DNA of 64,000 bases from Candidatus Campbellbacteria bacterium (lineage in GTDB: Bacteria > Patescibacteriota > Minisyncoccia > Phycocordibacterales > JAXHMZ01). A program made the position numbers and the translations under genes. Location: the NCBI GenBank assembly GCA_034521025.1, contig JAXHMZ010000005.1:197176-261175 (forward strand), given 5' to 3'. Position 1 is the stretch's first letter. Each line of letters begins with the position of its first letter. Positions 7,364 through 43,043 of the stretch are shown in pieces. The notes beneath the pieces were generated by a model, which worked only from the letters and a program-made list of their open reading frames with translations, was not told where the DNA came from and ran no database searches.

Positions 7364-7406
7364 ACATAAAGTATACCAAATACAACATTTTAATACTAAA
7401 AAACGA

Positions 7407-7445
7407 AAATAAATGCTTCAATCTATAGATTGAAGCATTTATTTT
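7407..7445. repeat. 39-bp perfect palindrome 'aaataaatgcttcaatctatagattgaagcatttatttt' (copy 1 of 2)
   Basis: Identical to 42693..42731. Lies in the divergent region between the HIT gene and recJ. Confidence 0.8.
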
Positions 7446-7499
7446 GGCTTATTTAAGCCCTTTTTCAAGCTAAGCATTAAGGCGTTCGGTCGTGCTACA

Positions 7500-9236
7500 A
7501 TGGCTCCTATGGGTAAGTCTATTATATTTGAGGAGAAGTCTAAAAAAGTTCCGAAGGGGGTATTGAAAGGCTATTCAGCGGTAGCTAGAACGCTTCTTTA
7601 CAATCGTGGCTTCACCGACGAAAGAGAAGTCGAAGATCTTTTAAAAGGAAACTACGAAGAAGGAACGCACGATCCTTATCTTATGCTGGGAATGGATGTT
7701 GCGGTTGAAAGAATAGTGAAAGCCCTAAAGAACGATGAAAAGATCGCTATCTTTTCTGACTATGACGCTGACGGGGTGCCGGGAGCCGTAGTTCTGCGGG
7801 AGTTTTTAGAGAAGATCGGTTTTAGCAATATAGAGTCTTATATTCCGCATCGTGGCATTGAAGGTTTCGGACTGAATAATACGGCTATCGCTGAATTAAA
7901 GGACAAGGGGGTGACACTTTTGATCACGGTTGATTGTGGCATTGCTGATATTGAGGAGGTCTCATACGCTCAAAGCGAAGGAATAGACGTCATTATAAGT
8001 GATCACCACATCTCTCCCGAGGAACCGCCGCCTGCTATTGCGATACTTAACCCCAAGCAACCGTCTTGCAAATATCCGTTTGATGAACTTTGCGGAGCAG
8101 GTGTGGTGTATAAATTAGTTCAAGCTCTGATAGCTCACGAAGAAGTTTCGTTTTCGATTGGGCAGGAAAAATGGTTGCTTGATCTGGTCGGTATAGCAAC
8201 TCTTGCCGATATGGTTCCGTTGGTGGACGAGAACAGAATATTCGCTCGCTATGGCCTTCTGGTGCTAAATAAGGGACGTCGTCTGGGTCTGCGAGAGTTG
8301 CTTTCACAAGCCAAGGTGGACTATCGGACTATCTCAGAGGATGATGTTTCGTTTACCATCGCGCCGAGAATAAACGCCGCCAGTCGAATGTCGCATCCTG
8401 ATATTGCCTTCGGTCTCCTGTTTGCCAAGACTCGCAAAGAAGCGATGGAACAAGCGGCAAAGCTCGAAGAGATAAACAAAGAGCGCAAAACTTTGGTTGC
8501 TCGTATAGCAAAGGAGGTCAAAAAGAAATTTGCTGATCGCAAGCCCGGACCGGTATTGGTAACCGGCAATCCGCGCTGGAAACCGGGCATACTCGGACTT
8601 ATTGCCAACTCGCTCTCTGACAGTTTCGAGCGGCCGGCTTTTGTTTGGGGCAGAGAAGGAGAATCGGGAAGTATAAAGGGTTCGGTTCGCTCAGACGGAA
8701 TTATGAATGTGGTTGAAATTATGAAGTCTTTGCCCGAAGAGACCTTCATAAACTATGGCGGACACGCTTTTTCCGGAGGATTTTCAATAGAGCTTGAAAA
8801 GGTACATTCTCTAGAGGGTCTTTTAAATGATGCGGCACGCACCACAAAAGAAACGGACGAAGAGGAGCTGTCGTCCGCCAAACGATATTTTGATATGAGC
8901 GTCAAATCGGAAGAAATAGAATCTGGTCTTTTTGAGGAAGTTCTTTCCTTGTCACCGTTTGGAGTAGGATTTGAAAAACCGATATTTAAGATAGAAGACG
9001 TAGAAGTTGTTTCGGTCAAAGAGTTTGGTAAAGATAAGAATCATCTAGGGATCGATTTCAAAGGAAAAAACGGCAAAGTTTTCAACGCGATAGGATTTTT
9101 TATGACAAAAGACAGCTTTTCTTTAGATATTGAGCCTGGCAAAACAATAACTATTTATGGTGCATTAGAAAAGAGTTTCTTTAGGGGTAGAGCAGAATAT
9201 CGTGTCCGGATCGAACACCTAGAAGAGCATATTTAA
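7500..9236 (+). CDS. recJ: Single-stranded-DNA-specific exonuclease RecJ
   Basis: DHH motifs ('IAIFSDYDADG', 'DHH') and a DHHA1-like C-terminal region; 578 aa. Confidence 0.85.
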   Translation: MAPMGKSIIFEEKSKKVPKGVLKGYSAVARTLLYNRGFTDEREVEDLLKGNYEEGTHDPYLMLGMDVAVERIVKALKNDEKIAIFSDYDADGVPGAVVLREFLEKIGFSNIESYIPHRGIEGFGLNNTAIAELKDKGVTLLITVDCGIADIEEVSYAQSEGIDVIISDHHISPEEPPPAIAILNPKQPSCKYPFDELCGAGVVYKLVQALIAHEEVSFSIGQEKWLLDLVGIATLADMVPLVDENRIFARYGLLVLNKGRRLGLRELLSQAKVDYRTISEDDVSFTIAPRINAASRMSHPDIAFGLLFAKTRKEAMEQAAKLEEINKERKTLVARIAKEVKKKFADRKPGPVLVTGNPRWKPGILGLIANSLSDSFERPAFVWGREGESGSIKGSVRSDGIMNVVEIMKSLPEETFINYGGHAFSGGFSIELEKVHSLEGLLNDAARTTKETDEEELSSAKRYFDMSVKSEEIESGLFEEVLSLSPFGVGFEKPIFKIEDVEVVSVKEFGKDKNHLGIDFKGKNGKVFNAIGFFMTKDSFSLDIEPGKTITIYGALEKSFFRGRAEYRVRIEHLEEHI

Positions 9237-9617
9237 AAGAATTACCCCGAGAAATAGTCCCGGGGCAATTGAAGCTTGGGTTCTTGGCGCCGTAGGGCGC
9301 TTCACCTCCCTACGGCGTTTCCCTTTTGGGGTATCACCGACCTTCCACAGCCTGGTTTCGGGGTGATATTTCGGTTTGAAGATGCGGACGTCGTGGCTCC
9401 GCACAAACCTTCCGTTCCCAGTTTTGACGGTTTCAATAAATGATCCGTCCTCTGCGTAGGTCATATATTTGGGATCATTTCCGATTCCGCCACTTGGGTG
9501 CAGTACGATATCACCCGGCTCCAGAAACTTAGCACATGTCCAGATTAGTACCTCTTCTCCAAACGAATGTTGGGTTTGCTCTTCTCGAGTCATCGGACTT
9601 GCTAGTCTTGGATCCAT
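9219..9617 (-). CDS. Hypothetical protein
   Basis: GAGGAG sits 8 nt upstream of the ATG at 9617. No recognisable family. The C-terminal ~35 codons overlap the recJ terminator hairpins. Confidence 0.4.
   Translation of the reverse strand: MDPRLASPMTREEQTQHSFGEEVLIWTCAKFLEPGDIVLHPSGGIGNDPKYMTYAEDGSFIETVKTGNGRFVRSHDVRIFKPKYHPETRLWKVGDTPKGKRRREVKRPTAPRTQASIAPGLFLGVILLNMLF
9287..9327 (+). terminator. Intrinsic terminator after recJ
   Basis: Stem gcgccgtaggg / ccctacggcg with a 10-nt loop, followed by 'tttcccttttgggg'. A second weaker hairpin precedes it at 9246..9266. Confidence 0.6.
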
Positions 9618-9724
9618 TTAAAGATCTCCTCTCGGTCTTTATAAAAACATTTTTTGTGAATATGTCAAATATTATCTAGCGATAAAAGGACCCAACCTAT
9701 GATAAGGTCGGGCCCGAATGTTTC

Positions 9725-9943
9725 TTATGCGCTCATCTCAGGGAGTAGCCCAGCATAATCCATCTGTGGGAATTCGGGAATTTGGTCCTCGTTCTCAACT
9801 CTACGAAGGATTTTCAAGTATCCAGCGTTAAAGCAAAAGTCAACAAAACAGACTTCGTGCTCTTCATCGAGGCCAATCACCTTCCCAATTTCCGGCAGTC
9901 GATAAGCTTTGCCAGGCTTCATCTTGTTAGCGCACTTGAACAT
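9725..9943 (-). CDS. Hypothetical small protein (72 aa) with a long structured 5' leader
   Basis: GGGAGGA immediately upstream of the ATG. A TTGACC-N18-TATAAA promoter on the minus strand at ~10095..10125 gives a ~145-nt leader. Confidence 0.45.
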   Translation of the reverse strand: MFKCANKMKPGKAYRLPEIGKVIGLDEEHEVCFVDFCFNAGYLKILRRVENEDQIPEFPQMDYAGLLPEMSA

Positions 9944-10145
9944 GAGTCCTCCCGGACTTCGCGGTCAATAACCGCGAGGCGTGTACCAGTAAGACCCCTA
10001 TTGTCCTACTCGTCTCACGCACTTGAGGTTCTCTCTAAAACGTTTCCTGTGCGAATATCATTCACACGAGGGCCTATATATTGAAACCTCCTTTCCGAGC
10101 TTTTTATAGCATATTTTTGGAAATATGGTCAATTTTTTGACGTGA

Positions 10146-10177
10146 ATAAAAAGAGCGCAAGGTTGTCCTTGCGCTCA
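10146..10177 (-). terminator. Intrinsic terminator for the 10185..10430 gene
   Basis: Perfect stem gagcgcaagg / ccttgcgctc, followed on the minus strand by TTTTTATT. Confidence 0.7.
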
Positions 10178-10184
10178 GAGTGAC

Positions 10185-10430
10185 TCAATTGTCATTTTCC
10201 TCTTCTTCCAACTTATTTTCCTCTTCTGCTATTTCTTTTTTTACGTCCTCAAGCTCTCTTCGAAGCTTGCTGTTGGTCTTGCCGAGTCCCTTGATCTTGA
10301 TCCGATAGTCATGGATCTTCTTTTGAATGCCGGCGAGGCGCTCTCTCAATTCGTCTTTGTGGCGCCGTAGGTTACTTATGTGCTGCCGCCTCTTTTCTTT
10401 TTCGTTAAGCGCCTCTGCGACGACAATCAC
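10185..10430 (-). CDS. Small coiled-coil protein (hypothetical); the ORF-track start at 10478 is TTG, and the GTG at 10430 has a better RBS
   Basis: AGGAGG sits 5 nt upstream of the GTG. K/E/R-rich heptad-like sequence. Confidence 0.5.
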   Translation of the reverse strand: MIVVAEALNEKEKRRQHISNLRRHKDELRERLAGIQKKIHDYRIKIKGLGKTNSKLRRELEDVKKEIAEEENKLEEEENDN

Positions 10431-10553
10431 CGTGACCTCCTTTCCCAGGACTAGACCTTCTCCTATTAAAAGGAACAAATCAGAGTTATTTTTATCATAC
10501 CACGGTTTTTTGTCAAAATGAGCTTCTCTGGCTTGTAATGATATACTGAAAAA

Positions 10554-11282
10554 ATGAAAACGATTTATATTTTTACTGATGGCGCGTCAAAGGGGAATCC
10601 TGGTCCGGGTGGCTGGGGAGCGGTTTTGGTTGCCGGAAACGAAGTTAAAGAAATAGGTGGCTTTGAAGAGAACACGACCAATAATCGTATGGAATTGATC
10701 GCGGCAATAAAAGCTTTGGAAGAGGTAAGAAGCAACGAAACAAACTCAAAAGAAATAAACGTCTTTTCTGATTCTTCTTACCTTATAAACGGGATCACGA
10801 AATGGATCTATGGCTGGCAGAAAAAGAATTGGAAAACTACAACTAAAAAGGATGTCGCAAACAGCGGTCTTTGGGAGCGCCTTTGGGAGGTCCAAAAAAA
10901 CAGGAATATAAACTGGAAATACGTTCCCGGACACAGTGATGTTGCCGGAAACGAAAGAGCGAATGATATCGCCGAAGAGTTTGCTAGAGGAAAAGACCCC
11001 GATCTCTTCAGAGGTCCGGAAGAGTCTTACCAGATCGGGCTAGTCAGTAACGAGAAGCCCCTAGGAAGGGACGGGCAAATTTCTGATCTAGAAAAAGCGA
11101 GGGAGAGTAAAGGCAAGAATAAAGGCAAGGCGTATTCTTATGTATCGCTCTTAGATGGCAAGATAAAGACGCATAGTACTTGGCAAGAGTGCGAAAAAAG
11201 AGTAAAAGGCAAACCGGCTCTTTATAAAAAAGCAATGTCAAAGGAAGACGAAAAAAATATCATCAGTGAGTTTCGCGGTTAA
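10554..11282 (+). CDS. rnhA: Ribonuclease HI with a C-terminal extension
   Basis: 'FTDGASKGNPGPGGWGAVL', 'TNNRMEL', 'SDSSYLINGI' and 'GHSDVAGNERAD'-like motifs. Confidence 0.85.
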   Translation: MKTIYIFTDGASKGNPGPGGWGAVLVAGNEVKEIGGFEENTTNNRMELIAAIKALEEVRSNETNSKEINVFSDSSYLINGITKWIYGWQKKNWKTTTKKDVANSGLWERLWEVQKNRNINWKYVPGHSDVAGNERANDIAEEFARGKDPDLFRGPEESYQIGLVSNEKPLGRDGQISDLEKARESKGKNKGKAYSYVSLLDGKIKTHSTWQECEKRVKGKPALYKKAMSKEDEKNIISEFRG

Positions 11283-11290
11283 AAGTATAT

Positions 11291-12850
11291 ATGCTGAAAT
11301 TCAGATTCTTTATTCTTCCAATTTCTCTTTTTGGGGTGGCTTCAGGTCTGTTTTTGTTTGAATTTTTGGGATTGGGAGAATATTTTATCCTTTTCCTCCT
11401 TTTAATAATTTTTAGCGTAGTTTTTATAGCTTTTGCGTTCAGGGCTGAAAGAAATCTGAAAGTTTTGATCGTTTTCTCATCACTGTTTTTTCTCAGCGTC
11501 ATTTTTGGTTTAATTCGCGCCAATTTATCTGAAAAAGAGTTTATTCTGTCTCGTCATTCGGGTGAAAGGATCGAAGTAATGGGTACTGTTATGAACGACC
11601 CGGAAGACCGCGGGTCTTATTTATTTGTGATCTTGGAAGCTGATTTTATCCGGACGGATAAAGTGTGCGCCTCTGTTAGTGAGCGAGTGCTAGTCAGGAC
11701 GGATCGTTTTGAACCGATATCTTATGGTGACAATTTGCGTGTTCGGGGGTTAATTGAAAGGCCGGAGCCGTTCGTTACTGACACTGATAGAGTATTTGCT
11801 TATGATGAGTTTTTAGAAAAAGATAATATCGGCGCGGTAATTTCTTTTGCTTCCGTGGACGTTATTTCTTCTGGCGATGGTAATCTTATAAAACAAATGC
11901 TTTTTTCTCTAAAGAATGAATATCTAGATACGGTGTCTCGCTATGTTCCGGACCCGGAGTCATCTCTCCTCGGTGGTTTAACGGTAGGTGCCAAGCAGTC
12001 TCTCGGCGAAGAGTTAGAAAAAGACTTTCGCTCAACCGGCATCATTCATATTGTCGTTCTTTCCGGATACAACGTAGTGATAATAGCTGAAGCAATTTTT
12101 ATTTTATTGCGATATTTTTCAACCAGAGTCAGAGTGTCGTTGGGGATCATTGCGGTGAGCTTCTTTGCCGTTCTTGTTGGCGGAGGAGCTACTGTGGTGC
12201 GCGCTTCTATAATGGCGATAGCCGCTTTAGTTGGAAGGGCGTTGGGGCGGGAAGTTCTTGCGATCCAGACATTGTTTTTTGCCGCCATTGCTATGCTAAT
12301 TTTTAATCCATCTCTCTTGCTTTATGATCCGTCTTTTCAACTATCTTTTATGGCGACTCTCGGCCTCATTCTTTTATCAAAACCCCTTGAGAAATATCTC
12401 CATTGGGTACGATACAAGTGGCTTCGCGACATAACGACCGCAACGGTAGCGACACAGTTGGCGGTTTTGCCTTTGCTAATTTACTTAGTCGGAGAAGTTT
12501 CTCTTGTTGCTCTGCCGGTCAATCTTCTGGTTCTGCCAAGTGTACCACCGGCTATGTTACTCGGATTCCTTACCGGAATTTTCGGCTCTATTCCGTTTAT
12601 CTCTCTTGTTCTCGGACCCGTATTCGGGGCTCTGTCCTTTTTCTTCTTGAGTTATGAGTTGTTAGTAATTGAAGTTTTTGCTGCTCTGCCTTTCGCTTCT
12701 CTAAGATTGCCCCACTTTCCCTTTGTGTTTGTGTTGAGTTTATACGCGTTACTCGGTTTTTTCACTTTGGTGGTTTCTCGTCCTGGCGCGGTCAGAAAAA
12801 ATATACTACTAGATGTTTCTCATTTATTTTTGGGAAAAAGAGAAAAATGA
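11291..12850 (+). CDS. comEC: ComEC/Rec2-family DNA internalisation channel protein (DUF4131 plus competence domain; no MBL domain)
   Basis: Multiple TM helices, with 'GIIHIVVLSGYNVVIIAEA' in the competence-domain region. Confidence 0.75.
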   Translation: MLKFRFFILPISLFGVASGLFLFEFLGLGEYFILFLLLIIFSVVFIAFAFRAERNLKVLIVFSSLFFLSVIFGLIRANLSEKEFILSRHSGERIEVMGTVMNDPEDRGSYLFVILEADFIRTDKVCASVSERVLVRTDRFEPISYGDNLRVRGLIERPEPFVTDTDRVFAYDEFLEKDNIGAVISFASVDVISSGDGNLIKQMLFSLKNEYLDTVSRYVPDPESSLLGGLTVGAKQSLGEELEKDFRSTGIIHIVVLSGYNVVIIAEAIFILLRYFSTRVRVSLGIIAVSFFAVLVGGGATVVRASIMAIAALVGRALGREVLAIQTLFFAAIAMLIFNPSLLLYDPSFQLSFMATLGLILLSKPLEKYLHWVRYKWLRDITTATVATQLAVLPLLIYLVGEVSLVALPVNLLVLPSVPPAMLLGFLTGIFGSIPFISLVLGPVFGALSFFFLSYELLVIEVFAALPFASLRLPHFPFVFVLSLYALLGFFTLVVSRPGAVRKNILLDVSHLFLGKREK

Positions 12851-12892
12851 AAGCCCGCTTTTACGGACTTTTAAAATTGAATCGCTCGGGGT

Positions 12893-13516
12893 TTAGGATC
12901 GCGCGCTTTGGAATCTCTCTTCCGGAACTCGCCAGTTGGTGTTTTTCATTACTGCTTCAACGTAACTGCTCTTTTCGCTCGGAGCGTAGTCCAGCATAAA
13001 GGCGTGCTCCCACATATCAATTCCAAAGATGAATTGCGCGCTGTTTAGGTGTCCAAGGTGTTGCTCATCTATCCAGCTGTTTAGCAACCTGTCTTTTTCA
13101 CGATCGTAATAAAGGATCGCGAATCCGATGCCGCGCATACCTGTTAAGTAAACGATGTCCTCCTTCCAGGTCTCGACAGAACCAAAGTCCTCTTCAAGTT
13201 TTTGAGCAAGGGGGCTTTCCGGATCTATCTCCTGAATACCTTCCGTGAACTGCTCAAAGAAATATTCGTGGTTGCGCATTCCTCCGAATTCAAAGGCGAA
13301 ACGCCTGCGCGCCTCTAGAAGAGCGTATTTGTTATTCTCATCGCCACGAAGGGACTCTATAAGATCCAGAACTTTATTGGTATTCTTTACGTAACCTGAG
13401 TAGAGACCCAGGTGGGTGTCCATTGTTTTCTCGGAGATCCCTTCGAGCGCGTGGAACTCGAATTGTTGTTCGCTATAGTGATTCATAAGTTTTACTGTTA
13501 GCTTGTAATTAATCAC
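12893..13516 (-). CDS. sodA: Fe/Mn-family superoxide dismutase
   Basis: C-terminal 'IFGIDMWEHAFMLDY' matches the GIDVWEHAYY SOD signature. N-terminal helical hairpin with His residues. 207 aa. Confidence 0.8.
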   Translation of the reverse strand: MINYKLTVKLMNHYSEQQFEFHALEGISEKTMDTHLGLYSGYVKNTNKVLDLIESLRGDENNKYALLEARRRFAFEFGGMRNHEYFFEQFTEGIQEIDPESPLAQKLEEDFGSVETWKEDIVYLTGMRGIGFAILYYDREKDRLLNSWIDEQHLGHLNSAQFIFGIDMWEHAFMLDYAPSEKSSYVEAVMKNTNWRVPEERFQSARS

Positions 13517-13537
13517 ATTGTAACACGCTTACCACCT

Positions 13538-14416
13538 ATGAGATCCTTCAGGTCTTTATTAATACTCCTTACTTTCATCTCCTTTTTTGTAGCGGTGGCG
13601 TTGTGGCTCGTCCTATTTATTCACTCAATAGAGAAACCGCTGGAGGTGGTTTTTCTCGATGTAGGGCAGGGAGACGCTATTTTTATAGAAACACCCAAGG
13701 GCGAAGAAATTCTAATAGATGGCGGTAGAGATAACTCGGTGTTGCGTGGGCTTTCGCAAGTTATGCCGTTCTGGGATCGCTCGATCGATCTTGTCATAGC
13801 GACTCACCCGGACGCTGATCATATCGGCGGAATTGTTGACGTCCTAAGAAGGTATAAAGTGAAAGCTATTCTTGATACAGAAGTAGAAAACGACACCCCG
13901 GCCTTCATTTCATATTCTCAAGAAGTTCAAAAGGAAAAAGCTCGATCGATAGATCCTGTGCGAGGCTCGCAGTTATTTTTTGACAATGTTGTTCTGACTA
14001 TTTTGTCAAAAGAATCTAGTGTGACAAGCGACCCCAACGATGCTTCGATCATTGTCCGTCTTGACTATGGCGAGACAAGCTTTTTGTTAACTGGTGACGC
14101 GGACAAGAAGACGGAGCGAGAGTTGTTGGGTTTTTACGATGCTCTTGAAGCAGATGTTTTAAAGGTGGGACACCACGGCTCAAGTACTTCTACCGCGAGC
14201 GAATTCGTCTCGGCTGTTTCACCGGAGTTCGCTGTTATATCAGTGGGCGAAGACAATTCCTATGGCCACCCAACCGATGAAGTGCTCAATACTTTAGAGA
14301 AACAAGAAGTAGAAATTCTGCGGACCGACGAAGACGGTATGATCAGATTTGAAAGTAATGGCGATATTCTCGTACAAAAGGACCCCGGATTTTTCCAAAA
14401 GTTAATAGGAATATAA
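13538..14416 (+). CDS. Metallo-beta-lactamase-fold domain protein (ComEC C-terminal nuclease-like domain encoded as a separate gene)
   Basis: N-terminal TM segment; 'LDVGQGDAIFIE', 'HPDADHIGG' and 'GHHGS' MBL motifs. Confidence 0.75.
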   Translation: MRSFRSLLILLTFISFFVAVALWLVLFIHSIEKPLEVVFLDVGQGDAIFIETPKGEEILIDGGRDNSVLRGLSQVMPFWDRSIDLVIATHPDADHIGGIVDVLRRYKVKAILDTEVENDTPAFISYSQEVQKEKARSIDPVRGSQLFFDNVVLTILSKESSVTSDPNDASIIVRLDYGETSFLLTGDADKKTERELLGFYDALEADVLKVGHHGSSTSTASEFVSAVSPEFAVISVGEDNSYGHPTDEVLNTLEKQEVEILRTDEDGMIRFESNGDILVQKDPGFFQKLIGI

Positions 14417-14430
14417 TTATTTAATCACAC

Positions 14431-14459
14431 TTGACAAAAGTATGCTTATGATATATAAA
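14431..14459 (+). promoter_or_regulatory. Sigma70-like promoter TTGACA-N17-TATAAA
   Basis: Near-consensus -35/-10 with 17-nt spacing, directly upstream of the GC-rich element. Confidence 0.55.
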
Positions 14460-14465
14460 GTAGAC

Positions 14466-14786
14466 CGACGTCCTTTTCAAACGGGAGGAGAAGAAGATGC
14501 GCGGAAGCAATAACTCGCACAAAGGTGTTCCTCGGGACGCGGATTGCGCTGTAAAGCCAACCTGCGCTCGCCCAAAGCCCTCTGGCCAAGCGAAGCGTGA
14601 TGCCGCTCGTAGGCTGCGCCAGGGGCTTAAGCAGAGAGATCGTCTCGTAACAGAGACGGCTTTCGAGGAAACCCCAAGAGAGGATACCGCAGAGCCGCGT
14701 CGCTCCACTTCCGCGATGTCTGTCTGAGCGTATACATAACGTTCTGACATCAGATAGCCCCGAGTTTAACAGCTCGGGGTTTTTTA
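14466..14786 (+). ncRNA. Unidentified GC-rich structured element (candidate ncRNA, or a 76-aa Arg-rich ORF 14497..14727)
   Basis: Bounded by a strong promoter and a hairpin (ccccgag...gctcgggg) plus T-run terminator at 14757..14786. Locally elevated GC with long-range complementarity (CGCGGAAG/CUUCCGCG). GGAGGA sits 9 nt upstream of an ATG at 14497. Confidence 0.3.
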
Positions 14787-14838
14787 TTTAGGCAACTTTA
14801 GTGTTCGATTTTCGCGCAAATTTATATATAATGGCGGT

Positions 14839-16023
14839 ATGGAACAAATGCCCCAACATCCGGATCGTCCCGACCACAATGAGCACATACCATATGATGA
14901 GTCGCCGGCGGCTAGAATAGAAAATCCATACTTTTTTTCTGAAAGTAAAGAAGGTGGCAAGGGTCTTAACTCCTACATTGAAAAGCGTTCTCTAAAGCGC
15001 GTAGAAAAAGAACGCAAAGGAGAAGAGAGCCAAGAAGAATACACGTCTCGTATGGGAAGGGCACTTGACTACACGATGGGTTTTCTCCCTAAAGCCGCCG
15101 GTAGTCTATATGAATTTCGTCAACAAAATAAAGCCAAAGAAAGCGGTGAACGTCGTCGCGTGGACGCCGAAAAACTTCTCCCGATAGTAGAGTTCCAAAA
15201 CAAGATAGTCTCAATACTTTCCGGGCTTAGTCCGGAGGATCGTTATAAATATGTGAAAGCTTCTCGGGTCGCTCTAAACGAATGGTTTGAAAAGGAAAAC
15301 ATAGACAAAGAAATTCGATCAGAAATGCGCACTACATTTGATGGTTGCGAGGCGGTTTGCGGGTATATGGATAAACGCAAAGAAGAACTGGGTGAAAATG
15401 TGAGCTTTTTTACTGATGTCTATTTGGATTGGAAGTATGGGATTGACCTGGTGGAGTTTAGTCCTCGTGAGAATAAAGAGGCGCTAGATATGCGGCTTGT
15501 ACAGAATAAGTCTTCATTCGGATCAAATGAAGATGTGGCAAAAGATCAAGAACGCCACTATTCTTGGGTTCAAAATGAACTTCTCGGTATGAACGATGTT
15601 CTGGATCGATTTTCCGAAGTGGTTGAAGCTGAATATAACTCGGAGCACCAAAAAGATCTGCGTAAGGTTTTGGCGGACTCGTTTGCTGACTCGGCGCTCG
15701 CAGCGCTTGAAATAAAACAGGGGGAGAATGAAGTCGGCTCGGAGTCAAACAAAGATAGACAGTTCTTAGAAAACGAAAGTGAATTATCCCGACTTGCCTT
15801 TGCGCTCTCTTTCCAGGAAGACGGCGAAAAGGAGAGTACCTTAGGAAATATAGCTGAGGAAATTAAAAATGAAGAGAGCGAGGACTTCATAAACAAAATT
15901 CCGATATCTAGGATATACTCTGTCTTTGCGGTGAATGATGAAACGCCAGGAAATCCGGCTTTGTTGTACTCAGAAGGTAGAGATGGAAGAAATTTGTTCA
16001 CGGGAGTTGAGCAAAGTGTATAA
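14839..16023 (+). CDS. Hypothetical protein (acidic, 394 aa)
   Basis: Long ORF with no recognisable motifs. Confidence 0.5.
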   Translation: MEQMPQHPDRPDHNEHIPYDESPAARIENPYFFSESKEGGKGLNSYIEKRSLKRVEKERKGEESQEEYTSRMGRALDYTMGFLPKAAGSLYEFRQQNKAKESGERRRVDAEKLLPIVEFQNKIVSILSGLSPEDRYKYVKASRVALNEWFEKENIDKEIRSEMRTTFDGCEAVCGYMDKRKEELGENVSFFTDVYLDWKYGIDLVEFSPRENKEALDMRLVQNKSSFGSNEDVAKDQERHYSWVQNELLGMNDVLDRFSEVVEAEYNSEHQKDLRKVLADSFADSALAALEIKQGENEVGSESNKDRQFLENESELSRLAFALSFQEDGEKESTLGNIAEEIKNEESEDFINKIPISRIYSVFAVNDETPGNPALLYSEGRDGRNLFTGVEQSV

Positions 16024-16070
16024 CTTTACAAATCTTTATTTTTATAGTATAAATGTTCATGGAGGACACA

Positions 16071-16268
16071 ATGAATAACAAGCCAGCAAACCAAAATGGA
16101 AACGAGGCAGACACTGCCTCGTCTCGAAGTGAGATAAAGATCGCGGTAGATGAGCTTATGGAGAAAATGGTGCCCGAGCTTAAGGCGGTAATTGATAACG
16201 ATGAACTCAGCGACGAAGCAGGGCGCGAGAAAATTGAAGCCATTCGCGAACGATTTACATCTCAGTAG
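16071..16268 (+). CDS. Hypothetical small acidic protein
   Basis: GGAGGA sits 6 nt upstream of ATG 16071. The ORF-track start at 16053 is further upstream. Confidence 0.45.
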   Translation: MNNKPANQNGNEADTASSRSEIKIAVDELMEKMVPELKAVIDNDELSDEAGREKIEAIRERFTSQ

Positions 16269-16280
16269 ACGGAGGTAAAT

Positions 16281-16865
16281 GTGAAGGCAAAGCGATTGCT
16301 CTTGCTGAAGACTGTGATATTGATCCCACTTGTCCTGTCGTTTGTTTCATTTGCAATCCAAATGAGCCCTAGGTTCGAGCTGTTTTTCCCGGACATAGGT
16401 GCCCATATCAGAGGCACGGTCCAGCTGTCCATTCCAGAAGTTGAGGTTGTCAGGAACGCGACTGAATTACCGGTTCCGGAAGTTCAAGTTGCCTACGTTT
16501 TGAGATCAACCGCGTACAACTCCGTATCCGGGCAAACTGACTCAACACCTAATATTACCGCGACAGGTGAACGCACTCAGCATGGAATTGTAGCACTATC
16601 TCGAGATATGCTCGAGATGTTCCCTTACGGAACAACGGTCAAGATACTTGATATTCGTTCCATGGATGGAGCGCCGAATGGTTGCGGAGCAACTCCAAAG
16701 ACCATCGAGCGTCTACCAACCCTTCCAGGGTTGAGTCCGGGCGAATTTCGGGTAGCGGATACGATGCATCCCCGCAAACAAAGACAGGTGGATGTCTGGC
16801 TCGACAGGGTAGAGTACGCACGCAACTGGGGAGTTTGTGAAGTTGTGTTGGCCAAAGCCAACTAG
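16281..16865 (+). CDS. 3D-domain (MltA/YuiC-like) cell-wall-associated protein
   Basis: N-terminal signal/TM; C-terminal 'TATGERTQHGIVALSRD...YGTTVKILD...FRVADTMHP...VDVWLD' resembles a 3D domain. Confidence 0.55.
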   Translation: MKAKRLLLLKTVILIPLVLSFVSFAIQMSPRFELFFPDIGAHIRGTVQLSIPEVEVVRNATELPVPEVQVAYVLRSTAYNSVSGQTDSTPNITATGERTQHGIVALSRDMLEMFPYGTTVKILDIRSMDGAPNGCGATPKTIERLPTLPGLSPGEFRVADTMHPRKQRQVDVWLDRVEYARNWGVCEVVLAKAN

Positions 16866-16890
16866 TTCTTTCTGAAAGATCAGAGTGAAA

Positions 16891-16930
16891 CAAAAAGACC
16901 GCACCATTTAGGTAGCGGTCTTCTTTTATA
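16891..16930. terminator. Bidirectional intrinsic terminator between the 3D-domain gene and rpmB
   Basis: Stem aagaccgc / gcggtctt, flanked by an A-run and a T-run. Confidence 0.6.
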
Positions 16931-16946
16931 TAAATATTCAGAGCTA

Positions 16947-17189
16947 TTAGATAATGCCGGCTTTTTTGAGTGTTTCAAAGGCTCCGTTTTTTTGTATGGT
17001 TTTTAGCCCCTTGGTTGAAACGTTAACCGTAACGTATTTTTCCAACTCAGGAACAAATATCCTCTTCTTCTGGATATTGGCTCTCTTTCTTTTCTTGCCG
17101 GTAGGGTTGAACTGGGTAGCACGAGTGCGGTTAGAATACCCGCCTCCTATTTGTGAACTTTTTCCTGTGATCTCGCAAACTTTTGACAT
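16947..17189 (-). CDS. rpmB: 50S ribosomal protein L28
   Basis: 'MSKVCEITGK...TRATQFNP...VSTKGLKTI' matches L28. Confidence 0.85.
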   Translation of the reverse strand: MSKVCEITGKSSQIGGGYSNRTRATQFNPTGKKRKRANIQKKRIFVPELEKYVTVNVSTKGLKTIQKNGAFETLKKAGII

Positions 17190-17251
17190 AATAATGAGTT
17201 TTTCTTACGCAAGCTACTTTAGCATATCTACCCATTTATGCAATATTTGAT

Positions 17252-17887
17252 ATGATACACTACATCATTATGACTATAGGAGCTCTCATTGGGATCATTG
17301 TACTGATACTTTCCGTGGTGGTGCACGAGGTGGCGCATGGCTTTGTGGCAAACAAACTCGGCGACCCTACGGCGCGTCTTGAGGGGCGTTTGACACTCAA
17401 TCCGATAAAACACATCGATCCGGTCGGCTCTATTCTGATCCCCGGTCTCCTTATGATAACTAACGCGCCATTTCTTTTTGGTTGGGCGAAACCTGTACCG
17501 TACAATCCGTATAACCTCAGAGATCCCAATCGTGATGAAGCGCTTATCGCTGTTGCCGGTCCGGTTTCAAATATTATCTTGGCGACTTTGGGCGCCGTGT
17601 TGTTCAGAGTATTGGTAATGGGAGGAGAGGTCGGCTTGTTTGCCGAAATACTGATCCCGTTTGTCATCATAAACCTGGTTTTGGCTTTGTTTAACCTGGT
17701 TCCTATACCGCCGCTTGATGGCTCCAAAATTCTTTTCTCAATTTTGCCGGTCTCTATGTATCACATTCGGCAAACACTAGAGAGCTTTGGTTTCTTTATA
17801 GTGATCGCCTTCATTGTTCTCTTTGGAGGATTTATTGGACCGGCCGTTTTCAGTCTTGCCGAATTGATGCTTGGTGTTGCAATATAG
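17252..17887 (+). CDS. Site-2 protease family (M50) zinc metalloprotease
   Basis: 'HEVAHG' HExxH within a TM helix and a downstream 'NLVPIPPLDGSKIL' LDG motif. Confidence 0.8.
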   Translation: MIHYIIMTIGALIGIIVLILSVVVHEVAHGFVANKLGDPTARLEGRLTLNPIKHIDPVGSILIPGLLMITNAPFLFGWAKPVPYNPYNLRDPNRDEALIAVAGPVSNIILATLGAVLFRVLVMGGEVGLFAEILIPFVIINLVLALFNLVPIPPLDGSKILFSILPVSMYHIRQTLESFGFFIVIAFIVLFGGFIGPAVFSLAELMLGVAI

Positions 17888-17984
17888 ACATATTATGAGA
17901 CTTGCATTCTCACTTCGCCTGTAGTACTGTACTCTCTGTTGAAGCTCAATACGGGCTAGATTTTAATGTATACGAAAATTTGTA

Positions 17985-18389
17985 ATGGCAACAATTAATC
18001 AATTAACGAGAAAAGGGCGTAGCAAAAAACCACAGAAATCCAAAACTGTGGCTCTTGCTCGTGGGTTTAATACTCTTAAAAACCGCCCTTCTCTCTATAA
18101 CTCTCCTTTTAAAAGAGGCGTTTGCACAAAAGTAACAACCACAACTCCTCGCAAGCCGAACTCCGCGGTCAGAAAGATCGCTCGTGTTCGTTTGACGAAC
18201 GGTATGGAAGTGACCGCGTATATCCCGGGTATGGGACACTCGCTACAGGAACACTCGGTAGTGATGCTACGTGGTGGTGGTCCGAAAGACATTGGCGCCA
18301 ACTATACGGTAGTTCGCGGAGTTCTCGACTCTGGCGGAGTAGATGGGCGCAAAAAAGGACGCAGTAAATATGGAGCTAAGAGAGAATAA
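17985..18389 (+). CDS. rpsL: 30S ribosomal protein S12
   Basis: '[12 protein letters not shown]...PKKPNSA.RK...VTAYIPG' matches S12. Confidence 0.95.
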
Positions 18390-18397
18390 ATAATATT

Positions 18398-18865: not shown

Positions 18866-18913
18866 CAGAGTTAGTAAAATTATATAAACAGTTTTTATTA
18901 TCAATTTATTTGT

Positions 18914-39115: not shown

Positions 39116-39445
39116 ATGACACGATCACTTAAAAAAGGACCATATGTAGACGAAAAGCTCCTCAAGAAAATCGAGGGGAAGAAGCCGTCTGATGTCAAAG
39201 TAGTAAAAACTTGGGCTCGGAACTCTCAGATATCTCCGGAGATGGTAGGGTTTACATTTGGTGTACATAACGGGAAAGATCATATAGAAGTTCTCGTTAC
39301 GGAAGAAATGGTCGGTCATAGACTTGGCGAATTCGCTCCAACGCGCAAATTCTACAGGCACGGAGGTAAGATGCAGAAAGAGCTTGAAATAAAGAAACGC
39401 GAAGCCGAGATCGCGGCCGCCAAAGCGGCTAAAGCCACGGAGTAA
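39116..39445 (+). CDS. rpsS: 30S ribosomal protein S19
   Basis: '[12 protein letters not shown]' and '[13 protein letters not shown]' motifs. Confidence 0.9.
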
Positions 39446-39459
39446 AGTAAGTTTGACTG

Positions 39460-39795
39460 ATGAATATGAAAGCAAATCTAAAAAACTACAGACAATCTCC
39501 CCGCAAAGTCAGACTTCTAGCTGATTTGATTCGTGGTAAGCGGGCGGACGAAGCGCAGAGAACGCTTGAGTTTACGCCCAAGCGAGCCAGTCAGACACTA
39601 AATAAATTGATAGATTCGGCAGTAGCTAACGCGCGCCACAATGATAATAAAAAGCCGGAAGATCTATATGTGAGCGAAGTTCGCGTAGACGAGGGTTTCA
39701 CTCTTAAAAGATTCCGTCCGCGAGCTAGGGGTCGGGCAACTCGGCTCAGAAAACGCACTTCGCACATATATCTAACGCTTGACGAGAAAAAATAG
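39460..39795 (+). CDS. rplV: 50S ribosomal protein L22
   Basis: Conserved L22 sequence. Confidence 0.9.
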   Translation: MNMKANLKNYRQSPRKVRLLADLIRGKRADEAQRTLEFTPKRASQTLNKLIDSAVANARHNDNKKPEDLYVSEVRVDEGFTLKRFRPRARGRATRLRKRTSHIYLTLDEKK

Positions 39796-39801
39796 AATTT
39801 T

Positions 39802-40476
39802 ATGACACACACTGTACACCCATACGCACATAGAATTGGAATTATCCGTGATTGGAAATCACGCTGGTTCGGTTCAAAGAAATCATATCCCGAGTATTTG
39901 CGCTCGGATGTGGTTATTCGTGAGCACCTTGAAAAAAAGTTGCGTGGGTTGTATGTTTCTTCAGTAGATATTGAGCGCAGTGAAAAAGTTCTTCGCGTAA
40001 TAGTAAAAACTTCACGCCCCGGTCTTATAATAGGCCGAAACGGAGAAGAGATACAAAAGCTAAAAACATCTTTAATAAAAGCTCTACGGAAAGCAGAATC
40101 TAATATTCCCGAAGAAGTACGAATTGATGTCGAAGAGATCAAATCTCCTGAGTCCGACGCCGGCATAGTAGCGGAGATGGTACGTGAAGGACTTGAGCGC
40201 CGTCTGCCGTTTCGACGTGTGTTGAAACAGACAGCAGATAAAGTAATGGCGAATCGAAACGTTCTGGGCGTTCGTATTCGCGTAGCCGGTCGTCTTGGCG
40301 GAGCTGACATGGCAAGAACTGAAGAAATAATGAAGGGTCGAGTTCCTCTTCAGACTTTTCGCTCAGACATTGATTTCACCGAGACTCGAGCCGGAATAGC
40401 CCAAGGAACGCTTGGTATTAAGGTCTGGATATATCGCGGTGAGGTATTTGAAGAAGATAAAGAGAGCTCACGATAA
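39802..40476 (+). CDS. rpsC: 30S ribosomal protein S3
   Basis: KH-domain region and conserved S3 C-terminus. Confidence 0.9.
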   Translation: MTHTVHPYAHRIGIIRDWKSRWFGSKKSYPEYLRSDVVIREHLEKKLRGLYVSSVDIERSEKVLRVIVKTSRPGLIIGRNGEEIQKLKTSLIKALRKAESNIPEEVRIDVEEIKSPESDAGIVAEMVREGLERRLPFRRVLKQTADKVMANRNVLGVRIRVAGRLGGADMARTEEIMKGRVPLQTFRSDIDFTETRAGIAQGTLGIKVWIYRGEVFEEDKESSR

Positions 40477-40487
40477 TTAATACGCTT

Positions 40488-40904
40488 ATGTTATTCCCTA
40501 AGAAAGTAAAGTTCAGAAAGTGGCAAAAACAGCGCAAGCACCCTGAGAAAACGGGAGTGGCTAGCCGTGGAATAGACATTGATTTTGGTTCTCACGGAAT
40601 GAAGTCGGTGGATTATGGGCGAATCCGATCTTTTCAAATAGAAGCGGCGCGAAAGATTATATCGCGAACTATCGGCAAAACAGGGCGTATGTGGATCCGT
40701 GTTTTTCCCGACCGACCCTATACCGAGAAACCACCCGAGGTAGGTATGGGTAAAGGTAAAGGCGATCCGCAGGGGTATGAATTCGAAGTTACTCCGGGGC
40801 GCGTTCTTTTCGAAGTAGACGGAGTTACCGAAGAAGTAGCGCGAGAAGCGCTTCGTAAAGGAGCAGCCAAATTACCGGTAGCTATAAAAATTGTTGCTCG
40901 CTAG
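40488..40904 (+). CDS. rplP: 50S ribosomal protein L16
   Basis: Conserved L16 sequence. Confidence 0.9.
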   Translation: MLFPKKVKFRKWQKQRKHPEKTGVASRGIDIDFGSHGMKSVDYGRIRSFQIEAARKIISRTIGKTGRMWIRVFPDRPYTEKPPEVGMGKGKGDPQGYEFEVTPGRVLFEVDGVTEEVAREALRKGAAKLPVAIKIVAR

Positions 40905-40908
40905 TATT

Positions 40909-41100
40909 ATGAAAATGAAAGAAATACAAAAAAAGAAAGACAACGATCTGAAAAAGCTTCTTTTAGAGAAGCGCGAGGAACTGCGGGAATACCGTTTTGG
41001 CGCGACCGGGAGCAAGGCCAGCAATACGAATCTTGGAAATCAGATAAAAAAGGATGTGGCTCGTATTCTAACGGAGATAAACGCCAGAGCTCAGAAATAA
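40909..41100 (+). CDS. rpmC: 50S ribosomal protein L29
   Basis: 'MKMKEIQKKKDNDLKKLLLEKREELREYRF' matches L29. ATG 40909 is just after the rplP stop. The ORF-track start at 40891 is non-ATG. Confidence 0.85.
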   Translation: MKMKEIQKKKDNDLKKLLLEKREELREYRFGATGSKASNTNLGNQIKKDVARILTEINARAQK

Positions 41101-41109
41101 ACTAAACGT

Positions 41110-41370
41110 ATGGAAAAGACAAAGGAACAAACAAATAAAAGAAACAAAACCACGCTAAAAGGCACGGTAGTTTCGGACAAAACGAAAGACACGGTAGTGG
41201 TTTTGGTTAATCGTTATGTAAAGCATCCAAAGTACAAAAAGTATATGAAGATAGGCAGGCGTATTAAAGCCGCGGACGTAGGTAATACGCGCTCGGTTGG
41301 AGATACTATCTTTATAGAAGAATGTGCTCCGATATCCAAAGATAAGCGTTTTAAGGTGATCGATAAGTAG
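41110..41370 (+). CDS. rpsQ: 30S ribosomal protein S17
   Basis: Conserved S17 sequence. Confidence 0.9.
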   Translation: MEKTKEQTNKRNKTTLKGTVVSDKTKDTVVVLVNRYVKHPKYKKYMKIGRRIKAADVGNTRSVGDTIFIEECAPISKDKRFKVIDK

Positions 41371-41395
41371 AAGTCACCTATTTAGCAAAAATATT

Positions 41396-41767
41396 ATGAT
41401 TCAGACTCAAACACTCGTAAAAATAACAGATAACTCAGGCGGAAAGATCGGCCGTGTGTTCAAGATACTCGGTGGGTCAAAGAAGCGATACGCACAGATA
41501 GGTGACGTTGTTGTTTTGTCGGTGCAGTCAGCGGAACCACGCAAGCAAGTCAAGAAAAAAGATGTTTTGCATGCCGTGGTTGTAAGACAAGCCAAACCAA
41601 TGCGACGTGATGATGGATCATATATTCGCTTCGATGAAAACGCGGTGGTGGCAATCGAGAAAGGCGGCAAGGAGCCTCGCGCTGGACGTGTCTTTGGGCC
41701 TATTCCACGCGAGATATCCGAAAAAGGATTTCAGCGTATCGCTTCGCTTGCCCCAGAAGTACTCTAG
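41396..41767 (+). CDS. rplN: 50S ribosomal protein L14
   Basis: 'MIQTQTLVKITDNSGGK' matches L14. Confidence 0.9.
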   Translation: MIQTQTLVKITDNSGGKIGRVFKILGGSKKRYAQIGDVVVLSVQSAEPRKQVKKKDVLHAVVVRQAKPMRRDDGSYIRFDENAVVAIEKGGKEPRAGRVFGPIPREISEKGFQRIASLAPEVL

Positions 41768-41784
41768 TGATAAACTCATCCTCT

Positions 41785-42096
41785 ATGAAGATCAAGAAAA
41801 ACGACAACGTTACAGTGGTTTCAGGAAAAGATAAAGGAGTAACCGGAAAAGTTACAGAGGCTTTTCCTCGTCGAAACAAAGTTGTCGTTGAAAGTGTAAA
41901 CGTGGTGAAGCGTCACGCTAAGTCGAGCAAAAAAGGGGAAAGTGGGGAGATAATTGAGAAATCTCTACCGATCGACGTTTCCAACGTAATGCTACTCGAT
42001 CCAAAAGAAAACAAACCGACAAGAATAGGCTACTCTACGAACAAGGAGGGCAAAAAGGTCCGCGTGGCGAAAAAGAGCGGCCAGAACATAGACTAA
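41785..42096 (+). CDS. rplX: 50S ribosomal protein L24
   Basis: 'MKIKKNDNVTVVSGKDKG' KOW motif. The ORF-track start at 41767 is GTG overlapping the rplN stop; the ATG at 41785 is more plausible. Confidence 0.85.
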   Translation: MKIKKNDNVTVVSGKDKGVTGKVTEAFPRRNKVVVESVNVVKRHAKSSKKGESGEIIEKSLPIDVSNVMLLDPKENKPTRIGYSTNKEGKKVRVAKKSGQNID

Positions 42097-42106
42097 TTTA
42101 GATATT

Positions 42107-42664
42107 ATGACAACGACTTTAAGAGAAAAACAAAGCAAGGCATTTGAGGAGTTGAAAGGTGATCTTGGATACGAAAACAAGATGCAGGCTCCGCGTATTG
42201 AAAAGATAGTTATATCAAGCGGTATCGGTAAAGTGGACGATAAGAACAAAATTGAACTTATCGAGGATCGGTTGGCTCGTATTACCGGCCAAAAACCCGC
42301 TCCACGCCAGGCGAAAAAATCCATTGCTAGCTTTAAAGTACGTGAAGGCGACAAGGTTGGCTATCAGGTCACTCTGCGCGGACCCGAGAAGGAGGCGTTT
42401 TTTGACAAGCTGATAAATGTCGCCATTCCGCGTATGCGCGACTTTCGTGGGCTGTCTCGCGAATCGGTAGACGAAATGGGTAATTATACTGTCGGAGTCA
42501 GGGAGCACACTATTTTTCCCGAGACGTCAGATGAAGAGCTGCGCAATGTGTTTGGTTTTTCAGTTACTATCGTGACAACCGCAAAGAGCGGCGAAGAAGC
42601 TTTGAGGTATTTAGAGTACCTAGGTTTGCCGATAAAAAAAGAGGAAACCGAAACTGAACAATAA
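42107..42664 (+). CDS. rplE: 50S ribosomal protein L5
   Basis: Conserved L5 sequence. Confidence 0.9.
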   Translation: MTTTLREKQSKAFEELKGDLGYENKMQAPRIEKIVISSGIGKVDDKNKIELIEDRLARITGQKPAPRQAKKSIASFKVREGDKVGYQVTLRGPEKEAFFDKLINVAIPRMRDFRGLSRESVDEMGNYTVGVREHTIFPETSDEELRNVFGFSVTIVTTAKSGEEALRYLEYLGLPIKKEETETEQ

Positions 42665-42692
42665 AACAACGCAAAACGGCCTAAAATAAGGG

Positions 42693-42731
42693 AAATAAAT
42701 GCTTCAATCTATAGATTGAAGCATTTATTTT
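42693..42731. repeat. 39-bp perfect palindrome (copy 2 of 2), likely a bidirectional terminator after rplE
   Basis: Identical to 7407..7445. Confidence 0.8.
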
Positions 42732-42793
42732 GTCATTATTACTTAACTCAATTGTTAACAATCGAAGCATATGGTTGTGATACAATTTAGCCC

Positions 42794-42976: not shown

Positions 42977-43043
42977 TAGCGAACTTAAGGGCTTTTTGAG
43001 AGCATAAGTTCGATTGATCTATAACTAAGAAAGTTTATATAAA

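What the first reader, a model, noticed from the sequence alone, without database searches (positions are those of the whole stretch)
7407..42731. Identical 39-bp palindrome present at two distant loci
'aaataaatgcttcaatctatagattgaagcatttatttt' occurs at 7407-7445, in a divergent promoter region between the HIT gene and recJ where a terminator is not needed. It occurs again at 42693-42731, directly after rplE. It is fully self-complementary (17-bp stem, 4-nt loop) with A/T-rich flanks. Exact identity at 39 bp argues for a dispersed repeat family, such as a REP/MITE-like or bidirectional-terminator element, or a conserved operator, rather than convergence.
Basis: seen in the sequence. Interest (0 to 1): 0.5.

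Follow-up and report, generated by a model that had tools for sequence, protein, structure and literature searches.

The report
Terminator hairpin copied to second site
A 40-base perfect palindrome in a Campbellbacteria (CPR) genome looks like an ordinary two-way transcription terminator sitting in its usual place after the ribosomal gene rplE, and one exact extra copy of it has landed between two back-to-back promoters 35 kb away.

Summary
The same 39 nt occur at 7407-7445 and 42693-42731, and none is expected by chance. Copy A is a perfect 40-nt palindrome (18-bp stem, 4-nt loop, about -20 kcal/mol) and the strongest hairpin in the window.

The source is a Candidatus Campbellbacteria MAG. 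Copy B lies 27 nt after the rplE stop. Four relatives each carry a long perfect hairpin with A- and T-tracts at that slot, each with a different stem sequence. A leaderless promoter and a conserved small acidic-protein gene follow, then rpsN. Copy B is therefore a classical bidirectional intrinsic terminator.

Copy A lies between the divergent leaderless promoters of HIT and recJ. Three relatives have no hairpin there, and their spacer is 59-77 nt shorter, so A is a lineage-specific insertion.

I found no third copy or half-site in the window. Phage, plasmid, viral, metagenome and GTDB collections gave only unrelated hairpins.

Best reading: a terminator hairpin was recently duplicated to an ectopic site. 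There it may stop read-through from the pgk operon, which has no terminator of its own. A multi-copy REP/MITE-like family cannot be excluded, because only 64 kb of the genome could be read. An operator is unlikely. The finding is of modest interest.

The parts
7406..7445 (.). Palindrome copy A: perfect 40-nt palindrome (18-bp stem, 4-nt loop) with A-tract and T-tract arms
   Evidence: (I4)
7446..7464 (+). Tail of copy A: mini-hairpin GGCTTATTTAAGCC followed by CTTTT. It is terminator-like on the plus strand. It matches the reverse complement of 42673-42691 at 15 of 18 positions.
   Evidence: I1; p about 0.01, suggestive only
42692..42731 (.). Palindrome copy B: 39 nt identical to copy A, with an outermost G-U pair. 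It starts 27 nt after the rplE stop.
   Evidence: (I19)
42673..42691 (-). Possible tail of copy B, in inverted orientation relative to copy A. It lies within the rplE 3' untranslated stretch.
   Evidence: (I1)
7370..7378 (-). Extended -10 promoter of the HIT gene (TGGTATACT), 6 nt before its ATG (leaderless). The palindrome spans about -43 to -82 of this promoter.
7493..7501 (+). Extended -10 promoter of recJ (TGCTACAAT), 7 nt before the ATG at 7509. It is conserved in relatives. The palindrome ends 50 nt before the TACAAT hexamer.
   Evidence: P0001 starts at the fourth codon of the ORF
42778..42786 (+). Extended -10 promoter (TGATACAAT), 7 nt before the ATG of the 60-aa acidic protein. The palindrome ends 49 nt before the hexamer.
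6956..7363 (-). HIT-family hydrolase gene, divergent from recJ
7509..9236 (+). recJ
5757..6926 (+). pgk, the last gene of the plus-strand pilus-tpiA-pgk operon. No terminator-like structure lies between its stop and palindrome A.
   Evidence: (synteny with Pfam labels)
42107..42664 (+). rplE (L5), the last gene before palindrome B
42794..43448 (+). Two small acidic-protein genes (60 aa and 134 aa) between rplE and rpsN. They form a separate transcription unit, and homologues sit at the same place in relatives.

Best explanation
The palindrome is a Rho-independent, bidirectional transcription terminator. It has a 9-bp core stem containing G and C (GCUUCAAUC/GAUUGAAGC) and a UAUA loop. The stem is extended by pairing of an upstream AAAAUAAAU tract with the downstream AUUUAUUUU tract, so it reads the same on both strands.

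Copy B is the native terminator. It ends the S10-to-rplE ribosomal-protein transcript, ahead of a separately promoted, leaderless small acidic-protein gene. This arrangement is conserved in the clade.

Copy A is a recent ectopic duplicate of that hairpin. It may include about 19 nt of the rplE 3' tail, which would make a roughly 59-nt unit inserted in inverted orientation. It sits in the spacer between the divergent leaderless promoters of HIT and recJ.

At site A the hairpin is not needed by either flanking gene. It is, however, the first terminator met by plus-strand read-through from the pilus-tpiA-pgk operon. I infer that it acts, if at all, as an insulator that keeps that read-through out of recJ.

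Shown: the sequence identity, the hairpin anatomy, the conserved slot at B, and the extra DNA at A. Inferred: termination activity, the direction of copying (B to A), and the insulator role. The copying mechanism is unknown.
For: - Identity and non-randomness.
- Terminator anatomy on both strands: called terminator-like on both strands at both sites; z -5 to -7; -20 kcal/mol with 5-6 T in the 10-nt tails. It is the same A-tract/stem/T-tract design as the hairpins after fusA (21114), secY (47550) and in the convergent gap at 59951.
- Conserved slot at B. L020, L021/L022 and L023/L024 each have a 13-18-bp perfect hairpin with A- and T-tracts directly after rplE, all with different stems. TGnTACAAT leaderless promoters follow. 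Searches show the conserved acidic protein.
- Long perfect AT-rich palindromes serve as terminators elsewhere in the clade. L018 has a 44-nt palindrome after rpsG.
- A is an insertion. HIT(-)/recJ(+) synteny is kept in L014, L015 and L018. Their -10 to -10 spacers are 41, 37 and 55 nt against 114 nt here, and they hold no hairpin.
- The 59-nt inverted unit: (I1).
- No terminator after pgk: (z +0.64).
- Promoter assignments: 9 of 14 TGnTAYAMT motifs in the window lie 6-10 nt before an ORF start.
Against: - No transcript data exist, so termination is inferred from sequence only.
- The stem is AT-rich, with 4 G-C pairs of 18.
- Copy A does not follow the end of either adjacent gene, and relatives manage without a hairpin there.
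- The palindrome is 39/40 identical, whereas the putative tail is only 15/18 identical with a 1-nt offset. That is odd for a single recent 59-nt duplication. Either the tail similarity is chance (p about 0.01 before correcting for four comparisons) or the palindrome itself is kept identical by some sequence-specific constraint.
- Only about a quarter of the 267-kb contig, and perhaps a tenth of the genome, could be read. 'Two copies' is therefore a lower bound.
Confidence: 0.58

Rival explanations
1. The palindrome is one member of a lineage-specific family of small mobile palindromic elements, REP-like or a minimal MITE. Such an element would spread through intergenic DNA by a transposase acting in trans and happen to work as a terminator. 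The copy after rplE would then be an insertion that replaced or supplied the terminator there.
For: - Two exact copies lie in 64 kb of a small genome.
- One copy sits where no terminator is required and is extra DNA relative to relatives.
- Perfect identity of the palindrome against diverged flanks is what a recently active element would show.
- A TA target duplication cannot be excluded, because TA...TA is part of the palindrome.
Against: - The window holds no third copy, degenerate copy or solo half-site.
- No match with the same loop and arms exists in GTDB genomes, JGI metagenomes, IMG/VR, phages or plasmids.
- No transposase, RAYT or recombinase domain appeared among the 30 window proteins scanned.
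- The element is AT-rich and perfect, unlike G+C-rich REPs (PMC3184786).
- It has no core between the inverted repeats and no direct-repeat target duplication outside the palindrome.
- Relatives show no repeated hairpins in the roughly 20-30 kb read from each.
Confidence: 0.22
2. The palindrome is the operator of a dimeric DNA-binding regulator, acting as an activator or a distal repressor. This regulator would co-regulate recJ/HIT and the acidic-protein genes from a fixed upstream position.
For: - It is a perfect dyad.
- Both copies end 49-50 nt upstream of the -10 hexamer of a leaderless TGnTACAAT promoter, and copy A also ends 30 nt from the HIT -10. The equal spacing is a coincidence of a few per cent.
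- Strict identity of all 39 nt would fit sequence-specific recognition.
Against: - Forty bp is long for an operator.
- It is absent from the orthologous HIT-recJ spacer in three relatives.
- In relatives the hairpin after rplE has unrelated stem sequences and ends 17-25 nt from the -10 hexamer (14-22 nt from the start of the extended motif), so neither sequence nor spacing is conserved.
- The window holds no isolated half-sites.
- No DNA-binding regulator appeared among the neighbouring small proteins. The only hit was a sub-threshold Myb-like match on a low-complexity acidic protein.
Confidence: 0.1
3. The two copies are recombination sites or scars. They could be att-like borders of an inserted 35-kb island, the ends of an invertible segment, or an assembly artefact.
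For: - Identical 39-40-bp repeats bracket 35.2 kb.
- With the tails included, the 59-nt units are inverted relative to each other (I1).
Against: - The enclosed DNA is core genome (recJ, comEC, rpsL, rpsG, fusA, tuf, the S10 operon).
- It has the same order and orientation as in relatives. L018 and L021 lie on one contig.
- Cumulative GC skew rises steadily across both sites.
- No integrase or invertase was found.
- A 39-nt repeat is shorter than the k-mers usually used in final assemblies. That last point is my own knowledge and was not tested.
Confidence: 0.04

Closest known systems
Bidirectional Rho-independent (intrinsic) terminators
   Same: A stable hairpin is flanked by an A-tract upstream and a T-tract downstream, so a hairpin with a U-tract is presented on both strands. 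Copy B lies just after a stop codon, at a slot that holds such a hairpin in every relative examined.
   Different: An exact second copy lies in a divergent promoter spacer, whereas terminators are normally unique in sequence. The stem is unusually long (18 bp), perfect and AT-rich. Activity is untested.
REP/BIME elements of proteobacteria (mobilised by RAYT transposases)
   Same: It is a short extragenic palindrome of about 35-40 nt, repeated within one genome, and it can sit in 3' untranslated regions and influence termination or mRNA decay.
   Different: REPs are G+C-rich, usually imperfect, present in hundreds of copies and associated with RAYT genes (PMC3184786). Here the element is AT-rich and perfect, only two copies were seen, and no RAYT was found in the window.
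MITEs such as Neisseria Correia elements
   Same: Inverted-repeat ends are present, the location is intergenic, such elements can carry terminator or promoter activity, and a TA target duplication is possible.
   Different: There is no core between the inverted repeats. The size is 40-60 nt, against typically 100-400 bp. No demonstrable target-site duplication exists and no family was shown.
DNA uptake sequences arranged as inverted pairs in terminators (Neisseria DUS, Haemophilus USS; PMC1852404, seen as title and abstract only)
   Same: Identical sequence recurs inside terminator stems of a bacterium that is probably competent. ComEC and type IV pilus genes are in the window (by synteny with the Pfam labels).
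   Different: Uptake sequences are 9-12-mers that are heavily over-represented, also as single copies and inside genes. Here the 13-nt half-site occurs only in the two palindromes.

Membership tests
Bidirectional intrinsic terminator | Stable stem-loop followed by a T/U-rich tract, on both strands | tested here: met
   called on both strands at both sites; z -5 to -7; -20 kcal/mol; 5-6 T in each 10-nt tail, plus the UUUAUUUU of the stem's 3' arm
Bidirectional intrinsic terminator | Lies at the 3' end of a transcription unit | tested here: inconclusive
   Copy B meets this: it starts 27 nt after the rplE stop and lies before an independent promoter. Copy A does not for either adjacent gene, since it lies between divergent promoters. 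Copy A is only the first plus-strand terminator after pgk, 480 nt downstream.
Bidirectional intrinsic terminator | Terminator present at the orthologous position in relatives | tested here: met
   Met for copy B: (L020, L021/L022, L023/L024 each have a perfect hairpin of a different sequence). Not so for copy A.
Bidirectional intrinsic terminator | Transcripts end at the U-tract | not testable with these tools
   No transcriptome data are available. Term-seq or a reporter assay is needed.
REP/BIME | Tens to hundreds of copies per genome | tested here: inconclusive
   Two copies in 64 kb. The rest of the 267-kb contig and the genome could not be retrieved.
REP/BIME | G+C-rich, usually imperfect palindrome | tested here: not met
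   4 G-C pairs of 18, and a perfect palindrome. The definition is from PMC3184786.
REP/BIME | Associated RAYT (HUH tyrosine transposase) gene | tested here: inconclusive
   None among the 30 window proteins scanned with Pfam. The remainder of the genome was not seen.
MITE | Terminal inverted repeats around a core, flanked by direct target-site duplications | tested here: not met
   The whole element is one palindrome with no core. The flanks outside it show no direct repeat. A TA duplication hidden inside the palindrome cannot be excluded.
DNA uptake sequence pair | Half-site strongly over-represented across the genome, including single copies | tested here: not met
   ATGCTTCAATCTA with up to 2 mismatches gave only the four arm matches plus one hit at chance level.
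Transcription-factor operator | Site conserved at orthologous promoters, or a fixed position relative to promoters | tested here: not met
   Absent from the HIT-recJ spacer of L014, L015 and L018. Hairpins after rplE in relatives differ in sequence and end 17-25 nt from the -10 hexamer, not 49. The equal 49/50-nt spacing within this genome rests on two sites only.
att sites of an island, or ends of an invertible segment | Enclosed DNA is accessory or mobile, or found in both orientations | tested here: not met
   The enclosed DNA consists of core genes in the same order and orientation as in relatives. GC skew is monotonic.

The most novel reading that the evidence does not exclude
The palindrome belongs to a lineage-specific family of terminator-like mobile palindromes in a CPR/Patescibacteria genome. 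As far as I know, no REP- or MITE-like elements have been described for this group, and one literature search found none. Such a family would install ready-made bidirectional terminators or insulators at new intergenic sites. It would also create 40-bp homologies able to rearrange core operons.
Probability: 0.2. Interest if true: 0.5.

Novelty: new member of a known kind. Interest (0 to 1): 0.25.

Why it matters
The stakes are modest.
- It gives a clean example of how a terminator hairpin can be copied to a new place in a streamlined genome. Such a copy could rewire transcription boundaries, here by stopping pgk-operon read-through before recJ.
- The comparison also maps the transcription grammar of this Campbellbacteria clade: leaderless TGnTACAAT promoters, long perfect palindromic terminators, and a ribosomal-protein operon split after rplE.
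- Two identical 40-bp palindromes 35 kb apart are a potential substrate for recombination across essential operons.
- If the full genome holds many copies, this would be a repeat family in a group thought to be repeat-poor.

Tried and rejected
- **Genome-wide count.** The source contig could not be fetched. Exact look-ups of RecJ, L5, HIT and P0001 found nothing on record.
- **Pattern scans.** I scanned GTDB genomes, JGI metagenomes and IMG/VR with TGCTTCAATCNNNNGATTGAAGCA. They gave 13 loci, all with other loops and flanks, and mostly ordinary terminators of unrelated organisms.
- **Nearest near-match.** L011 shares 31 nt with one mismatch, but it lies in G+C-rich unrelated DNA. I judge it a chance match.
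- **BLAST.** BLAST of the 73-nt unit against phages and plasmids gave nothing meaningful.
- **Closest rplE relative.** P0122 (82% identity) lies on a contig that ends 33 nt after the stop, before any hairpin could appear, so it is uninformative.
- **Prophage or island borders and inversion scar.** Rejected on synteny and GC skew.
- **DNA uptake sequence.** Rejected on half-site counts.
- **Known RNA family.** Rfam gave nothing at either site, and there are no tRNAs.
- **Direct-orientation flank similarity to the right of both copies (p = 0.005).** This is explained by the shared promoter consensus GTGnTACAAT, not by duplication.
- **Preprint on coupled promoters and terminators (10.64898/2026.08.19.745784).** It could not be opened. 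I saw only its title and the first lines of its abstract.
Full report
**Observation.** Nothing else in the window lies within three mismatches, and none of 100 dinucleotide-preserving shuffles produced a match. Copy A is a perfect 40-nt palindrome at 7406-7445. Copy B differs only at the outermost position (G at 42692), which still gives a G-U pair. As RNA, either strand folds into an 18-bp stem with a UAUA loop at about -20 kcal/mol, with z-scores of -5 to -7. It is the longest perfect hairpin in the 64 kb.

**Source and context.** RecJ (7509-9236) and L5 (42107-42664) are 100% identical to MDZ7726621.1 and MDZ7726656.1. Both come from a Candidatus Campbellbacteria MAG, on a 266,769-bp contig. 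That contig could not be retrieved, so only this window could be searched for further copies. The nearest relatives in the databases are distant: RecJ at 61-63% identity and L5 at 75-82%.

**Transcription signals in this genome.** The motif TGnTAYAMT occurs 14 times in the window, and 9 of those lie 6-10 nt upstream of an ORF start. These 9 include HIT (7378-7370, minus strand), recJ (7493-7501) and the 60-aa ORF (42778-42786). The recJ motif is conserved in relatives at the same distance from the ATG. These are extended -10 promoters that give leaderless mRNAs. That is inferred from spacing only.

Terminators in the window share one design: an A-tract, a stem with some G and C, a loop, and a T-tract that pairs with the A-tract. 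Examples lie after fusA (21114), after secY (47550) and in the convergent gap at 59951. The palindrome has exactly this design and is called terminator-like on both strands at both sites.

**Site B is a conserved terminator slot.** In L020, L021/L022 and L023/L024 (L5 at 75-79% identity), a long perfect hairpin with A- and T-tracts lies directly after the rplE stop. The perfect stems are 13, 18 and 13 bp, and all have unrelated sequences. A promoter and a hypothetical gene follow, then rpsN.

The gene after the promoter encodes a small acidic protein with a shared motif, PEF-x-E-x-R-I/V-D-x-E/D-K-L-R-x-A-I. This protein is the window's 60-aa ORF at 42794-42976. The split of the ribosomal-protein operon after rplE, with a terminator there, is therefore ancestral to this clade, and copy B is that terminator in this genome. 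The distance from hairpin to -10 hexamer is 17-25 nt in relatives and 49 nt here, so it is not conserved.

L018 also has a 44-nt perfect AT-rich palindrome in the terminator slot after rpsG. Very long perfect palindromic terminators are thus a habit of the group.

**Site A is an insertion between divergent promoters.** The order tpiA-pgk-HIT(-)-recJ(+) is kept in L014, L015/L016/L017 and L018/L019. The stretch between the two extended -10 motifs is 41, 37 and 55 nt in those relatives and holds no hairpin. In the window it is 114 nt.

The extra 59-77 nt matches the size of the palindrome plus the short hairpin and T-run that follow it (7446-7464). The repeat finder reports 7406-7464 and 42673-42731 as a 59-nt inverted pair at 86% (I1). 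Outside the palindrome, the only flank similarity beyond the promoter consensus is CTTATTTAAGCCCTTTTT against CTTATTTTAGGCCGTTTT, which is 15 of 18 with p about 0.01 against shuffles. This suggests, but does not prove, that about 59 nt of the rplE 3' end was copied in inverted orientation. The contrast between a near-identical palindrome and a diverged tail remains unexplained.

**What copy A could do.** Neither HIT nor recJ needs a terminator there. On the plus strand, however, pgk ends at 6926, only 29 nt from the convergent HIT gene. Nothing terminator-like lies between the pgk stop and 7406 (one search gives z +0.64). The palindrome is therefore the first stop signal for read-through from the pilus-tpiA-pgk operon, and it would keep that read-through out of recJ.

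Minus-strand read-through is less of an issue. A 13-bp hairpin followed by CUUUU is predicted near 9230-9270 on the minus strand. The insulator role is inference, and the copy may equally be neutral.

**Alternatives.**
- *Mobile REP/MITE-like family.* This is not excluded, because only part of the genome was read. Against it, the window has no third, degenerate or half copy. No related copy turned up in GTDB genomes, JGI metagenomes, IMG/VR, phages or plasmids. No transposase or recombinase domain appeared among 30 window proteins. The element fails the compositional and structural definitions of REPs and MITEs.
- *Operator.* Only the equal 49/50-nt spacing to two promoters supports it. The lack of conservation of sequence, presence and spacing in relatives speaks against it.
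- *Island borders, inversion or artefact.* These are contradicted by conserved synteny of the enclosed core genes and by the monotonic GC skew.

**Verdict.** The element is best read as an ordinary bidirectional intrinsic terminator in its conserved place after rplE, with one recent exact copy at an ectopic site. Its kind is known. The duplication is a small curiosity whose meaning depends on the genome-wide copy number, which could not be obtained here.

Noticed in passing
window 42665-43613; L020 4583-5480; L021 4562-6470; L023 4553-5501: The ribosomal-protein operon is interrupted between rplE and rpsN in this whole clade. The insert is a separately promoted cassette of 0.9-2 kb. It always contains a small acidic protein with the motif PEFxExRIDxEKLRxAI (60 aa here, fused into a 442-aa protein in L021) and has no Pfam match. 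rpsN then has its own TTGACA-17-TAATCT promoter at 43500-43528, overlapping a leader hairpin at 43528-43547.
   Followed up: partly
window 2547, 7378(-), 7493, 10539, 13525(-), 17253, 42778, 50236, 55703: Extended -10 motifs (TGnTAYAMT) lie 6-10 nt before start codons, so leaderless mRNAs appear to be common in this Campbellbacteria genome.
   Followed up: partly
window 32186-32349: Three perfect hairpins sit in the 258-nt gap between convergent genes. Two of them (32186-32204 and 32323-32349) share the arm GTCAACCTG/CAGGTTGAC, which makes a second small repeated hairpin motif in the window.
   Followed up: no
window 21134-21433 and 29076-29375: A 300-nt direct repeat at 99% identity covers the upstream region and 5' end of two giant repeat-rich ORFs (1992 aa and 1009 aa). 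The 1009-aa protein has a Peptidase_S74 'chaperone of endosialidase' domain. The region 21.2-32.2 kb is full of internal repeats of about 150 nt and appears to be larger than in the relative L018/L021.
   Followed up: no
window 60651-60722: An AdoCbl-II (B12) riboswitch (41.3 bits, above the gathering score) lies upstream of a class I-type ribonucleotide reductase pair: a small chain with an ATP-cone at 60828-62141 and a large chain at 62152-63828.
   Followed up: partly
L018 12872-12915: A 44-nt perfect AT-rich palindrome lies after rpsG in a relative. The Logan contig of the same organism (L019) ends inside it, which suggests that such palindromes break short-read assemblies.
   Followed up: no
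window 51784-54537: A 917-aa protein has weak TraG/TrwB/VirD4-type coupling-protein and HerA-like ATPase matches, and it is encoded next to nucleotide kinase genes.
   Followed up: no
window 9219-9617(-): A terminator-like hairpin for the minus strand (about 9230-9270) lies inside the 3' end of this 132-aa ORF, which also overlaps the recJ stop. The real gene is probably shorter than the mechanical ORF.
   Followed up: no
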